This document shows, in pieces, positions 5,802 to 62,447 of a stretch of 64,000 nt of DNA. The notes beneath the pieces are model-generated. The model saw nothing but the letters and a program-made list of their open reading frames with translations. It did not search any database and was not told the origin of the DNA. The position numbers and the translations under genes were made by a program. This DNA comes from Mobula hypostoma (Eukaryota). Where the stretch lies: NCBI RefSeq assembly GCF_963921235.1, contig NC_086097.1, positions 142,478,001 to 142,542,000 on the forward strand, written 5' to 3'. Each line of letters begins with the position of its first letter. Position 1 is the stretch's first letter.

Positions 5802-8800
5802 CTGTTTTACATATATGTAAAAAAAGAAAATATTTAAAACAGGACTTAGAAAAAGAAATTTAATTCAGCTTGTTCATTCAGATTAACCTAGAAATCTCCC
5901 AAAACCTCAACTAATATATTTTTCAGCTTTTCAAAACTTTTGTTTTCATCACTGTCCAGAAGCCCCTCTCTGCAAAGGACTTCAAATGAATGAAGTTCAA
6001 GGTACGGTTTTCACATTTACCCCTGGAATTAATGACAAGGTGACATTGATCACCTTTTCCCTTCTGCACCAAAAGTGGTGCTGTTTATGGGCCATAACAT
6101 GAACCAGCCAAAATCTTTTACGTGAAGATACTCTTTCTCTATTGAGTAGAAAGTTCGAGATTTTAATTTGAAAATCCTGGGGAGTACATTCAAATCATGA
6201 CAGCCTATTCTTAATTTTCTAGACAGTGAAACTCTTGAATTGGCAAATTGCTGTAGTCCCTACTATATGTAGGTGGTGCACACTACTGCTCTGATGCATT
6301 TGTAGAGGAGGAATGCATTACTGGCCCAGTTGTGTTGCAATTATGAGGGAGTACATATATTTGATCCATTTCTATTATCCTTGTAGCCTGGCACATTGTG
6401 CACTCTTGCACATTAGCTGTTGTCTCTCCTATGGGATGCAGTCTTTCATCGACTCTACTGTTTTATGGATTTACCATGCATGCTCACAAGAAAAGGAAAT
6501 TCCAAGGTTGTGTATGATGACATATATGTCCTTTGACAATAAATTTACTTTGAACTTTGGTTAACTGTTTTTCACCCAGTGTTTTCTCATTTGTTCCATT
6601 TGAAATTTTCCACTACACACTTCAAGTACCCCATTACTGCCTCTCTCCCTCACTTGAGCTTGGCTGTCAGAACATACCGTGTTAAATATCTGCAATCCAT
6701 CATGGCCTCCTGAAACATAGATCCTTCCTTCAAACACAGTGACTCCTGCTGCACTGCGACATGCATTCATCGCAGTCACTGCCACCCATCTGTTGGAAAC
6801 CAGAGCAAAGATCAATTACCTTTTGCTGATAAACCTAAATTTAGGCATATCAGTACAATTAATGTTATCCTCTTTATTTTATAAGAACTTTCATAACCTT
6901 AAAAACTCACTTCCTAGATCACAAACAAGAGGAAATCTGCAGATGCTGGAAATCCAAGCAACACACACGAAATGCTGGAGGAACTCTGCAGGCCAGGCAG
7001 CATCTATGGAAAAGAGTACAATCGATGTTTTGGGCCGAGACCCTTCATCAGGACTGGATAAAAAAAGATGCAGTCAGAGTAAGAAGGTGAGGGAAGGGGA
7101 GGAAGACAAAAAGTGATAGGTGAAACCGGGGCCGGTGGGGTGGGCTGGAATTGGGTGAAGTAAAGAGCTGGGAAGTTGATTGGTGGTCTCTTTCAGTAAT
7201 CAACTTCCCACTCCTTAATTCACCCCTCCACCACCCCCCTCCTGGTTTCAACTATCACCTTATGTTTCTTCCTCCCCTCCCACTACCTTCTTACTCTGTT
7301 GCATCTTTTTTTCTCCAGTCTTGATGAAGGGTCTCAGCCTGAAACGTCGACTGTACTCTTTTCTTTAGATGCTGCTTGGTTTGCTGAGTTCCTCCAGCAT
7401 TTCATGTGTGTTCCACCTCCTGGATGAACTTTTTCATCACTCCTTCTAATCTCTAGTTTGGGAGTCTATTCTTCCTTTACACTGTACAGGAGTGGCTTGG
7501 CTGTTAATCTTAAGAAAAAGTGTGAGATTAATGTTATCAAAAAATGCTGTTGGTATCAGCTAACTGACTCTTTATTGGTGACAGCTGTGGCCCAATTAGT
7601 AGCAGTCTTGCCCAAGTCAGAAGATGTGGGTTTGCCATGCTAAAGATCTGAATACAAGATCTAGCTTGATGACTACATTACTGGAGATACACTGGAGACT
7701 CTAGCTTCCCAGACCTTTTCTTCCCTCAGATGAGCATAAAAGATGTTATAACTGCAATTAAAAAGTATGATTCCTAAACGCTTCCCTAGCATGCATCTCT
7801 GAATGGAAGTACCAAGGTGAATATTTTGCTGTTTCTGTATAGTGGAGCTTGTAAGCAAATTAACTAATTTCCTACAGCACCAGAGTCACTATGTTCAAAG
7901 AATAATTTACTGGTTGTAAAATACTTGGTTACTTCCTGAGTCATGAAAAACGAATAAATTACTATATTTTCGTCCGAAGAAAGTTGATAGGAGGCCCAAG
8001 TGCTAATTTGCTCAGGTTTTGATCCTGTATTTGATATTCCATTTAATAAATGGAATAAGTGAACCTTTATGTTTATTTTCCAGATTGCCACCTATCCTAC
8101 TTCTTTCCCTAACTTGTAAATCTGATCATCTCAAAGTTCTTCTTATAGATGGCAAATAAAACAATCTGTTTAACCAAAAGTCCTGTGTATTCCTTTTTAA
8201 TGCTACATTACAATTTTCACAAAATAATCTTATTGTCATAGTATATATCCTTAGAGATGGGTGCCAATACTATTAACATTAATAACAATCCTTGCATTTA
8301 CAAAGCAGCCTTTACATTTTGGATATTTCAGTGTTTTGAATCAAATGGAGTACTTGCAAAATATAGGCATTGTTATCTGTTATAATGAAGGACACTGTCG
8401 AAGCAAGCTTCCACAAATAGATAATGATCAGAGAATATAGTAATGTTAGTTAAATAATAAATATTGACTATAATTATCATACTGGATTCCAAAGTTCATA
8501 GACGAAGCCTTGGTTTACTACTCATTCCTGAAGTTGGTTATCCAGTCTTTGTAGTGGACCTTGAATACAACATTCCAAATTAGAGGCAGCAGTGCTTTCT
8601 ATCTCACCATAAGTGAATATGTTCATGAAAAATACCACGTTCTTACCCTTAACCAGCATCCCTTCCATTTTATATTTTCCATATCATACACAGTATCAAA
8701 TATTACTGAGCACTTCTTTTAAAAAGTCTACATACATAATTTGAACTGCATTTAGTTTGCCAACACAAACCTCAACATAAACACAAGCAGCATCCATCAT

Positions 8801-11800
8801 CAAACCATGCTCTCTTCTCGCTAACATGAGGAAATCTGCAGTTGCTGGAATTTCAAACAACACACATAAAAGTTGCTGGTGAATGCAGCGGACCAGGTAG
8901 CATCTCTAGGAAGAGGTACAGTTGACATTTCGGGCCGAGACCCTTCGTCAGGACTAACTGAAAGAAGAGCTAGTAAGAGGTTTGAAAGTGGGAGTGGGAG
9001 GGGGAGGGGGAGACCCGAAATGATAGGAGAAGACAGCAGGGGGAGGGATGCGGCCAAGAGCTGGACAGTTGATTGGCTCCATCCCTCCCCATCCTGTCTT
9101 CTCCTATCATTTTGGATCTCCCCCTCCCCCTCCCACTTTCAAATCTCTTACTAGCTCTTCCTTCAGTTAGTCCTGACGAAGGGTCTTGGCCCAAAACATC
9201 GACTGTACCTCTTCCTAGAGATGCTGCCTGGCCTGCTGCATTCACCAGCAACTTTTATGTGTATTGTTCTCTTCTCGCTATTGCTATTGGGAAGGAGGTG
9301 CAGGAGCATAAGGTCCTTATATCACCAGGTTCAGGAACAGTTATTACCCCTCAACTATCAGACTCCTGACCAGTGTGGATAACTTCACTCATATCAATTC
9401 TAAACTGATTCCACAACCTGTGAACTTAATTTCAAGAACTCTACAAATCAGTTTCTCAATATTATTTATTTGCTTGTTTATTTTTTTTATATTTGCACAG
9501 TTTGTCTTCTTTTGCACACTAACTGTTTGTCAGTGTGTGTCGTTTTTCCATTGATTCTATTGTATTTTTATGTTCCTTTATGAATGTCAGCAAGAAAATC
9601 AATCTCAGGGTAGTATGTGGCTACACACAGGCACTTGGATAATAAATTTACTTTGAACGTTGTATTTTCATAATTCCTTCATTCATCACGGAATCTCACG
9701 CATCTTTCTCAGTTAACCATTTATCTTTCACGGTTAAAAATGGACCATGAAAATATCTTACTTGTCAGTTTCTGGAGCATAACATTCCACTGAATTGAGG
9801 GAGGAGATCCCATCGTACCCACCACAAACGTAGATATGTCCATCCATTACAGCTGTCCCCATTGCACTAGAACAAAGAACAGAAATACACTGAGATACTA
9901 GTTATTTGGTCCCGAAATCCAGGGATCCAATTATATCATAGACAGAAATAACTTTTCTGAGTGTGCACGAAATAGGTCAAATCTATCTACTTAGAAAAGT
10001 ACAAAATGATGTGCGTGTCATTCTTCGCAAGTTTGATTTGACTCAAAGTTCTTGTCACAACTGAAGTAATGATTCTAATCAAGCTTTTTCTTATCAGTTA
10101 CTTCCTTATTCAATGCCACTCGGAAGCATTGAAGTTGGTGCAGCATAATCGTGGGAGATTGTCTCAAGACATTTTACTTCCGATCGCAAGACTCTGTTGC
10201 ACAATGATAACGTAAATTGCCACAGGCCTGTTACCCTTGTCTGGTGGAGGGACAGTTGACATGAAAACTGTGTAGCCTCAGCTGTAGCGAGAATTAGGCC
10301 TCAAGCCTTGGGCTTGTCTGCTACTGCAGACCAGGTGAGAGACGCTGAAGTGCTATAGTGTGGTTGAGCTCGGCTGGGCCTGAGCTCTCCCACTGGTGCT
10401 GCCCTCCCATGTTCAACCAGTGGAATGACAGGCTAGAATGCATGCATCTGTACACTGCCGGAAGACTGTACCATCGATTGTTGGATATTGTCACTCAGGG
10501 TCTAGGACTATATATTTTTTTTGAGTGAACATGCTTCTTTGCTCAATATTTTGAATTACGTTTCTTGCTATTTTTAAATTCTTGCTTGCTATTTTGAATT
10601 TGCACTTTGGCCCCAGAGGAATGCTGTCTTGTTCAGCTGTATCTACGTAAGGTTTGAATGATATTTAAACTTGATTTGATTTGATTTAATTGATTATATC
10701 CCTCTGAGCAATTACCCTACAGGCAACTTACTTCCAGGCCAAAAAGTCCAGGATCCCCAACTGTTCCGTATAATTCAATTACCTGACACCAGGGAAATCT
10801 GGTGGCTCTCTGCTGCACTTTCTCTACATATAAATACCCAAGTTAAGGCTCAATTTGGCATGTACCCTCACAAATATTGAACTCATTTCTGGACACTGTG
10901 GGTCCCAACTTACTTTTTTCCCCAAAGTTCAAAGTGTATGTATTACACCAAAAAGTTCTATTTTAACTTCATCAGTCCACAGGACTTGTTTCCAAAATGC
11001 ATCAGGTTTGTTTAGATGTTCAGAATAGAACTTTTTGGCCGCAATAAGCAAAGGTATGTTTGGAGAAAAAAGGTGCAGAATTTCATGAAAAGAACACCTC
11101 TCCAACTGTTAAGCACGGGGGTGGATCAATCACGCTTTGGGCTTGTGTTGCAGCCAGTGGCACGGGGAACATTTACTGGTAGAGGGTAGAATGAATTCGA
11201 TTAAATACTAGCAAATTCTGGAAGCAAACATCACACTGTCTGTAAAAAAGCCGAAGATGAAAAGAGGATGGCTTCTACAACAGGATAATGATCCTAAACA
11301 TACCTCAAAATCCACAATGGACTACCTCAAGAGGCGCAAGCTGAAGGTTTTGTCATGGCCCTCACAGTCCCCTGACCTAAACATCATCGAATATCTGCGG
11401 ATAGGCCTCAAAAGCGCAGTGCATGCAAGACGGCCCAAGAATCTCACAGAACTAGAAGCATTTTGCAAGAAAGAATGGGCAGAAATCCCCCAAACAAGAA
11501 TTGAAAGACTCTTAGCTGGCTACAAAAAGCGTTTACAAGCTGTGATACTTGCCAAAGGGGGTGTTACTAAGTACTGCCATGCAGGGTGCCCAAACTTTTG
11601 CTTTGGGCACTTTGCCTTTTTTTGTTATTTTGAAACTGAAAAAGATGGAAATAAAGTTTTCTTGCTTAAAATATTAAAGAAATGTGTCATCTTTAACTTT
11701 ATGCCTTTTAGAAATCAGTTCATCTTTTATTCGCTTAGCTATTCACAGTAACAGAAATTTTGACCAGGGATGCCCAAACATTTGCATGCCACTGTATAAC

Positions 11801-62324: not shown

Positions 62325-62447
62325 TTCTCCCCCTTCTTTTCCAGCCCTGATGAAGGGGCTCGGCCTGAAACGTTGAGTGTTTCTTCCTCTCTGTTAATGC
62401 TGCCTGACCGGCTGAGTTCCATCAGCATTTTGTGTGTATTACTGTGG
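62325..62447 (+). mobile_element. Penelope-derived terminal repeat with a hammerhead motif
   Basis: CAGCC-CTGATGA-AGGGGCTCGGCCT-GAAAC-GTT-GAGTG at 62342-62379, then ATGCTGCCTGACCGGCTGAGTTCC. Confidence 0.7.

What the first reader, a model, noticed from the sequence alone, without database searches (positions are those of the whole stretch)
7021..62379. Dispersed family of minimal hammerhead ribozyme motifs carried by Penelope-derived repeats
Seen: at least 12 copies converge on CAGTC-CTGA(T/C/A)GA-A-GGGTCTCGGCCC-GAAAC-GTC-GACTG. Plus-strand copies are at 7316-7353, 9168-9205, about 24519, 32379, 60269-60299 and 62342-62379. Minus-strand copies are at about 7021-7056, 8919-8956, 25389-25420 (truncated), 27114-27146, 36368-36403 and 55037-55071. 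The consensus has the hammerhead core (CUGANGA...GAAA, NUH cleavage triplet GUC), a 5-bp stem I, a stem II hairpin with one extra A, and an ACGU palindrome instead of stem III. Known: Penelope-like elements carry such minimal type-I hammerheads, thought to cleave as dimers. The same repeat is contiguous with a PLE ORF C-terminus ([15 protein letters not shown]) at 55325-55386. Inference: this genome holds very many self-cleaving-RNA relics inside host introns, about one per 5 kb here. Every copy in this window has at least one deviation, so only the consensus or younger copies may be active.
Basis: partly seen in the sequence, partly recalled or inferred. Interest (0 to 1): 0.75.

Follow-up and report, generated by a model that had tools for sequence, protein, structure and literature searches.

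The report
Penelope stubs carrying minimal hammerhead ribozymes
These repeats are decayed end-pieces of a very abundant Penelope-type jumping gene, each carrying a tiny hammerhead RNA motif already known from such elements; many copies elsewhere in the genome begin just in front of the motif, which likely marks where the element's RNA starts.

Summary
Real, but a known kind. All 12 copies are present (10 insertions; two are head-to-head pairs) and none is intact. They are 3' ends of a Penelope-like retroelement of Neptune/Nematis type; full-length copies (1,043-codon frame, RT plus GIY-YIG) carry the same motif in both terminal repeats, about 3.5 kb apart. The genome holds 82,724 copies with an intact core pattern. 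The motif is conserved between subfamilies (33 of 38 bases, all 11 core bases, against 27 of 50 third codon positions), but shows no two-sided covariation and decays like its flanks once inserted. Copies end at two fixed places about 95 and 130 nt past the core, so every stub above about 130 nt carries it. 5' ends pile up 2-4 nt before the core's stem (15 of 88), probably the RNA's start; a pile-up at the cut site is not robust. Cleavage is untested. This scan noted the same element and pile-up before, in this and other genomes.

The parts
6919..7416 (.). Two-armed (head-to-head) insertion of an older subfamily; motif copies at 7019-7056 (-) and 7316-7353 (+); in a Kelch-gene intron
   Evidence: 12-bp target duplication with 2 mismatches from 6908
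8824..9268 (.). Two-armed insertion of the younger subfamily; motif copies at 8919-8956 (-) and 9168-9205 (+); same intron
   Evidence: (arms 92% complementary); exact 13-bp target duplication from 8811
24202..24655 (.). Old copy: motif near 24515-24553 (+, core broken) with an inverted piece of the ORF end at 24202-24306 (-)
25291..25420 (-). Old stub, cut off inside the core
27051..27170 (-). Young stub starting at the core, stem I 5' strand missing, with a short inverted tail piece
   Evidence: exact 14-bp target duplication from 27039
32355..32513 (+). Old copy, core broken
35460..35588 (-).
36266..36426 (-). Old copy with tail, core broken
53344..53445 (+). Stub of the same repeat that begins downstream of the motif
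54947..55392 (-). Longest copy in the window: ORF C-terminus (55330-55392), 3' untranslated region, decayed motif (55035-55072)
60227..60395 (.). Young two-armed stub nested in another repeat; plus arm starts inside stem II
   Evidence: exact 14-bp target duplication from 60213
62299..62459 (+). Old copy; core bases intact, both stems broken
5418..26070 (-). Host gene of the BTB-BACK-Kelch family (KLHL18-like, name recalled); six motif copies lie in its introns
   Evidence: Pfam hits on seven exons, further exons read, GT/AG ends
34136..64000 (+). Host gene like D-serine dehydratase, running on past the window end; four of the listed copies lie in its introns
   Evidence: exon 39959-40312 matches a solved D-serine dehydratase at E 6e-32; exons near 34136, 56804 and about 68.8 kb assigned by reading

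Best explanation
The repeats are 5'-truncated 3' ends of an endonuclease-bearing Penelope-like retroelement whose terminal repeat carries a minimal type-I hammerhead motif, predicted to cut only with help (a second copy and likely the element's protein), and the copies in this window are likely inert. Shown: the full element is repeat-ORF-repeat with the motif in both repeats; copies end at two fixed places about 95 and 130 nt downstream of the first core base; many have a head-to-head second arm. Inferred, by analogy with the anole element studied in vitro: reverse transcription starts inside the RNA at those two places, so the motif lies within the first 130 nt copied and rides along in most stubs, which explains its abundance without any host function. 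Inferred: the RNA template often begins 2-4 nt before the core, at the 5' strand of stem I, which matches an initiator consensus; the enzyme runs off that end, giving 100-135-nt inserts. Inferred: the motif is kept under selection only in the source elements, where cutting would remove the first 31 or so nucleotides (with the cap) about 60 nt ahead of the reading frame; most copied templates were not cut.
For: Full-length structure: 5 of 20 loci picked for long frames have a 1,043-codon frame; three show the motif in both repeats 3,513-3,517 nt apart by pattern and a fourth by self-alignment; RT and GIY-YIG Pfam hits; linker and CCHH residues visible. 3' ends of 280 copies: 125 at +85..103, 126 at +123..141, 4 between. 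Head-to-head partner within 500 nt for 69 of 169 hits against 12 tail-to-tail. Subfamily majorities differ at 5 of 38 motif bases, none in the 11 core bases and none breaking a pair, against 27 of 50 third codon positions and 122 of 274 untranslated bases kept (Fisher P 0.001). 5' ends: 15 of 88 at -4..-2, 0.064 per base at risk against 0.021-0.023 beside it and about 0.001 beyond -48; 45 of 92 in an enriched sample, P at most 0.0016 under all seven nulls; 8 of 13 single-armed copies with a target duplication start at -4..-2.
Against: No cleavage, transcript start or protein binding was measured. No pair changes on both sides (0 of 9 pairs in 12 sequences; not above shuffles). The stretch +48..+71 is as conserved between subfamilies (21 of 24), so conservation alone does not prove catalysis; a multiple alignment gave 31 rather than 33 of 38 for the motif. 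Folding of seven sequences is no better than shuffles (z -0.1 to -1.3), and the modelled cutting dimer is about 9-10 kcal/mol less stable than two folded-back monomers. Both Pfam hits are below the curated cut-offs. In the unselected sample only 4 of 46 young copies end at -4..-2 (4 of the 24 that reach the core's start). An extra G expected from a cap was not clearly seen. In Drosophila virilis the start lies 46 nt before an intron that precedes the motif (PMC2377424, PMC4209133), not at the motif.
Confidence: 0.7

Rival explanations
1. Same element and motif, but the pile-up before stem I is not a transcript start: the enzyme stalls there (a protein on the pyrimidine tract just upstream, or a structure), or the element's endonuclease trims a longer intermediate at that site.
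For: A pyrimidine tract and branch-point-like sequence lie directly upstream. The rate of ends stays raised out to -47 rather than stopping sharply. PMC11167929 reports that the anole protein can nick its own repeat; PMC8557442 ascribes the tail to endonuclease resolution.
Against: A stall at stem I should fall at its 3' strand, which the enzyme meets first, and ends there are rare (3,736 against 12,084 matches in the two enrichment searches, with different anchors). Target duplications show no shared sequence resembling this site (read by eye).
Confidence: 0.2
2. The AG at -3/-2 is a splice acceptor, as in Drosophila virilis, where the intron ends at stem I; spliced RNAs (own or host exon joined to the motif) are the templates and splicing remodels stem I.
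For: Pyrimidine tract plus AG abuts stem I in the young and old subfamilies; PMC4209133 describes this arrangement in D. virilis.
Against: Copies with target duplications carry no exon between the duplication and the motif (6 of 8 with none, the other two with a few bases); ends are commoner at -3 and -2 than at -1 (19, 16, 7 of 100); the tract is poorly conserved between subfamilies (8 of 20).
Confidence: 0.1
3. The motif is no longer a working ribozyme in the dominant young lineage and is kept as a promoter or protein-binding sequence.
For: The dominant form has lost the G10.1-C11.1 pair that PMC4209133 calls highly conserved (42,847 against 7,424 exact copies, with only 1,744 of the mirror CpG change), yet is the least diverged group. 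No covariation. In the anole element ribozyme mutants still insert in vitro (PMC11167929).
Against: All 11 core bases, the palindrome and a cleavable triplet are kept across subfamilies, and each fixed change is one the fold tolerates; a G-U pair still closes the stem in the predicted fold.
Confidence: 0.2
4. The intronic copies act on host transcripts (cutting pre-mRNA of the two genes) or form an independent retrozyme family.
For: 10 of 12 copies are intronic; about a quarter of whole-motif copies genome-wide keep core and stems (20 of 84).
Against: No window copy is intact; five are sense and five antisense to their host gene; near neighbours are mostly on opposite strands, which cannot form a cutting dimer in one RNA; copies vary in length and run into element ORF, unlike tandem retrozyme units.
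Confidence: 0.04

Closest known systems
Minimal type-I hammerheads in the terminal repeats of animal Penelope-like elements (Cervera and de la Pena 2014, PMC4209133; parts 1-2 of 4 read, one supplement searched)
   Same: In both repeats of the full element; extra base after A9; palindromic 15.2/16.2 with no stem III; thousands of solitary copies; opposite-strand pairs 100-700 bp apart; reported for Xena, Poseidon and Neptune elements of fishes, coelacanth, frog and reptiles.
   Different: Far more copies (82,724 core-intact against 2,000-9,000 reported per genome, different search rules); short 4-bp stem II; dominant lineage has G10.1-U11.1; cartilaginous fishes are not named in the text read or the supplement searched.
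Endonuclease-bearing Penelope-like elements, Neptune/Nematis type (Craig et al. 2021, PMC8557442; Arkhipova et al. 2013, PMC3846280; passages read)
   Same: Single RT plus C-terminal GIY-YIG frame, CX2-5CxxC linker, CCHH, partial tandems, inverted 5' partner, optional 30-40-bp tail, target duplications.
   Different: Clade not fixed by a tree here; the pile-up of 5' ends at stem I is not described in the passages read.
Anole Poseidon element PAc (Frangieh et al. 2024, PMC11167929; parts 1-2 of 4 read)
   Same: Two neighbouring 3' end points that bracket the tail, near the start of the ORF; hammerhead just upstream; no clear sign of RNA ends at the cut site.
   Different: Poseidon clade; there the ORF starts inside the ribozyme, here about 60 nt after the cut site; protein-assisted cleavage shown there, untested here.
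Non-LTR retrozymes (PMC7229834, passages; bioRxiv 10.64898/2026.07.22.740005, parts 1 and 3 of 5 and passages)
   Same: Type-I hammerhead, derived from Penelope terminal repeats, present in a sampled chondrichthyan.
   Different: Retrozymes are tandem units of fixed length, often with canonical hammerheads; these copies are dispersed, of variable length and continuous with element ORF.

Membership tests
Minimal type-I hammerhead of Penelope-like elements | Core bases CUGANGA, GAAA and a UH cut site in type-I order | tested here: met
   All subfamily majorities and full-length elements; 82,724 genomic matches, 0 in control. Not met by most window copies.
Minimal type-I hammerhead of Penelope-like elements | Stems I and II can pair; one extra base between positions 9 and 10.1; palindrome in place of stem III | tested here: met
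   92.5% of cells paired, 15-44% when slid
Minimal type-I hammerhead of Penelope-like elements | Conserved G10.1-C11.1 pair | tested here: inconclusive
   Met in older subfamilies, replaced by G-U in all 17 sampled copies of the youngest and in the commonest genomic form
Minimal type-I hammerhead of Penelope-like elements | Compensatory changes in the stems | tested here: not met
   0 of 9 pairs with a change on both sides in 12 sequences; only one element lineage of one genome was available, so power is low
Minimal type-I hammerhead of Penelope-like elements | Position in both terminal repeats of a Penelope-like element | tested here: met
   L052, L053, L055 by pattern, L051 by self-alignment
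Minimal type-I hammerhead of Penelope-like elements | Self-cleavage as a dimer or with protein help | not testable with these tools
   Only nearest-neighbour energies and ends of genomic copies (inconclusive)
Endonuclease-bearing Penelope-like element | One frame with RT and C-terminal GIY-YIG endonuclease | tested here: met
   Pfam RVT_1 E 5e-5 and GIY-YIG E 1e-3, both below curated cut-offs; catalytic motifs read
Endonuclease-bearing Penelope-like element | Pseudo-LTR tandem, inverted 5' partner, optional 30-40-bp tail | tested here: met
Neptune (or Nematis) clade | CX2-5CxxC linker before the endonuclease, CCHH within it | tested here: met
   Read from the translation against the description in PMC8557442
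Neptune (or Nematis) clade | Placement of the RT in the clade by phylogeny | not tested
   No reference elements were fetched
Non-LTR retrozyme | Tandem non-coding units of fixed length, each with a hammerhead | tested here: not met
   Variable 5' ends running into ORF; same-strand neighbour within 500 nt for 18 of 169 hits
Rfam hammerhead families | Match to a curated covariance model | tested here: not met
   No hammerhead family among 30 matches at E up to 1; expected for decayed motifs without stem III

The most novel reading that the evidence does not exclude
The hammerhead sits at the very front of the element's capped RNA, its stem I doubling as the transcription initiator. Reverse transcription primed about 95 or 130 nt inside runs off that front end, which is why thousands of copies start 2-4 nt before the core, and cutting by the ribozyme, switched on by the element's own protein, would decap the RNA and turn translation off rather than release a unit from a longer transcript. 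The most successful recent lineage did so with a weakened G-U pair at the base of stem II.
Probability: 0.4. Interest if true: 0.6.

Novelty: new member of a known kind. Interest (0 to 1): 0.3.

Why it matters
The motif class is in print, so the finding as given is ordinary. What the hammerhead does for endonuclease-bearing Penelope elements is still open (PMC8557442, PMC11167929). A genome with over 80,000 core-intact copies and at least one full-length frame with intact catalytic motifs gives an unusually deep record of where reverse transcription starts and stops relative to the ribozyme, and names exact bases to test by 5'-end mapping and cleavage assays.

Tried and rejected
Pile-up of 5' ends at the cut site (+29): 16 of 76 in-range ends, but P runs from 5e-6 to 0.22 with the null, and a 2-nt microhomology join to the inverted arm explains it; not claimed. 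Core better conserved than flanks among inserted copies: not seen in old copies (0.145 against 0.130, non-CpG), weak in young ones (6 of 300 against 58 of 1,367, where mixing of subfamilies inflates the flank). Covariation: none. Rfam: no hammerhead hit; the microRNA-like hits are the two-armed inserts. RNA evidence: no RNA holder listed on record; only assembled contigs could be laid, which cannot show RNA ends; no joint ending at the candidate splice acceptor stood among the 15 joints shown in either call (366 and 34 more not shown); counted neither for nor against. Extra G before the -3 ends: 7 of 19 and 3 of 4 single-armed copies, one of them explained by the target duplication; inconclusive. 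Other hammerhead families in 864 kb: none by descriptor. The element protein has no sequence match among solved structures. The first ORF-linked comparison returned nothing through a script fault and was redone; one search failed and was redone. Apparent ends at -36 are an indel between subfamilies and were ignored. Lunse et al. 2017 on dimer cleavage is not held and is known here only through the review PMC6765202.
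Full report
Positions below are counted from the first core base (C3 = +1); the cut site lies between +28 and +29, and the 5' strand of stem I spans -4 to 0.

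Observation. All 12 listed copies are present. A profile built from the 12 window copies and nine other natural copies finds 15 hits in the window, 169 in 864 kb (window, 200 kb of flanks, 600 kb of scattered stretches) and none in the reversed DNA. The scattered stretches alone hold 112 hits, one per 5.4 kb, so the window is typical; 84 of the 169 cover the whole motif, and 20 of those 84 keep core, stems and palindrome. None of the 15 window hits does. The 25-fold asymmetry shows that U11.1 was fixed in a source element rather than gained by decay; all 17 sampled copies of the youngest group have it. Rfam gave no hammerhead match.

What it belongs to. Loci around exact matches run upstream into a GIY-YIG frame. 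A protein search found long open frames; of 20 loci picked for that, five have a 1,043-codon frame, and four of these repeat the motif at both ends about 3.5 kb apart. Pfam gives RT and GIY-YIG, both under the curated cut-offs; the translation shows a CX4CxxC linker and CCHH residues, which PMC8557442 (passages) gives for Neptune and Nematis elements. No tree was made. Copies end at two places: of 280, 125 at +85..103, 126 at +123..141 and 4 between, the optional tail of these elements. A head-to-head partner lies within 500 nt for 69 of 169 hits, against 12 tail-to-tail. In the window the pairs 7021+7316 and 8919+9168 are single inserts inside target duplications, as are 27114 and 60269. That the host is a cartilaginous fish rests on my recall of this repeat and an earlier scan note, not on a test.

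Host context. A BTB-BACK-Kelch gene lies on the minus strand (the name KLHL18 is recalled) and a D-serine-dehydratase-like gene on the plus strand. Ten of the 12 copies are intronic, five sense and five antisense. Nothing points to a host role.

Is it a ribozyme? The architecture meets the description in PMC4209133 (parts 1-2 of 4 read). Between the young subfamily and a distinct one, 33 of 38 motif bases agree, including all 11 core bases, and the five differences fall in the loop, at position 17 or turn a pair into a wobble; third codon positions agree at 27 of 50 and the untranslated region at 122 of 274 (P 0.001). Against this: no pair changes on both sides, the block at +48..71 is equally conserved (21 of 24), inserted copies lose core bases as fast as flanks in the old class, folding is not better than shuffles and the monomer folds back so that the core pairs with the cut site, and the cutting dimer is 9-10 kcal/mol less stable than two monomers in a model without magnesium or tertiary contacts. 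This agrees with the low activity of such motifs in PMC4209133 and the protein-assisted cleavage in PMC11167929 (parts 1-2 of 4).

Where copies begin. Among 88 copies chosen only for an exact match at +1..+31 (places from the first 5.5 Mb of one contig in the listing), 15 begin at -4..-2; the rate per base is 0.064 there, 0.021-0.023 on either side, 0.008 from -16 to -47 and about 0.001 beyond. In a sample enriched for ends between -12 and +3, 45 of 92 in-range ends fall at -4..-2 (tallied by eye from the first 100 of 12,084 matches; 8 ended further downstream), above all seven nulls for chance or microhomology joining (P at most 0.0016). Of 13 single-armed copies with a target duplication, 8 start at -4..-2, five at -2 (drawn from selected and unselected loci). 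In the wholly unselected sample the figure is 4 of 46, or 4 of the 24 that reach +1. The matching sample around the cut site shows 16 of 76 at +29 (first 100 of 3,736 matches; 24 rows at the window edges or with an insertion left out), but a 2-nt microhomology null accounts for it (P 0.18-0.22). The A at -3 fits the initiator consensus YYANWYY (recalled) in old and young forms. The simplest reading is a template whose 5' end lies at the foot of stem I; stalling, endonuclease trimming and splicing are the rivals. The RNA tools could not decide.

Comparison with what is known. The motif, its place in both terminal repeats, its spread as solitary copies and its opposite-strand pairs are in PMC4209133; tail, inverted partner and truncation in PMC8557442 and PMC3846280 (passages); internal priming at two sites in PMC11167929. 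In D. virilis the start lies ahead of an intron that ends at stem I (PMC2377424, passages; PMC4209133). Seven literature searches (listings only, apart from the papers named) turned up no description of this family, of the G10.1-U11.1 form or of the 5' pile-up; subscription journals, repeat databases, one supplement of PMC4209133 and the supplements of the bioRxiv preprint were not seen and may bear on this. Earlier notes of this scan, read after my own analysis, report the same element and pile-up in this and other genomes; they are unreviewed and add no independent support.

Verdict. It is a new member of a known kind, with a testable side result on where the element's RNA begins. Interest 0.3.

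Noticed in passing
window 59979-61769 and about 65.9-67.7 kb (just past the window end, L031): A 1.8-kb stretch that includes the 60269 insertion is repeated in inverted orientation 4 kb away at 94% identity, with the same nested insert: a local inverted duplication or conversion inside the dehydratase-like gene's intron.
   Followed up: partly
window 24628-25135: Minisatellite of 56-bp units (about nine units; copies 97-100% alike in the middle) directly after the tail of the 24519 copy.
   Followed up: no
window 26070-34136: The Kelch gene (minus) and the D-serine-dehydratase-like gene (plus) face away from each other; the first exon of the second gene was not located.
   Followed up: no
window 11678-13360 (+) and 50139-52772 (+): Two decayed DNA transposons of hAT type; the second has a Pfam hAT dimerisation hit, the first is assigned by recall only.
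   Followed up: partly
L095 4605-4453, L101 region near 19972, L087 12743-12620 and others: Several copies share a C at core position A6 together with a changed stem II loop, perhaps a small subfamily with a non-standard core.
   Followed up: no
Element repeat end, +48 to +96: A block at +48..71 is as conserved between subfamilies as the hammerhead and a predicted hairpin ends near the first 3' end point; a candidate binding and priming site for the element's protein.
   Followed up: partly
L055: A complex insertion with a full element, an inverted near-full partner and four motif copies, arms 99.4% identical: very recent activity.
   Followed up: no
window 2669-3917, 19595-23250, 27494-28528, 35793-37555, 43428-45848, 54104-54773: Many fragments of other long repeats, probably LINEs; not classified.
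   Followed up: no
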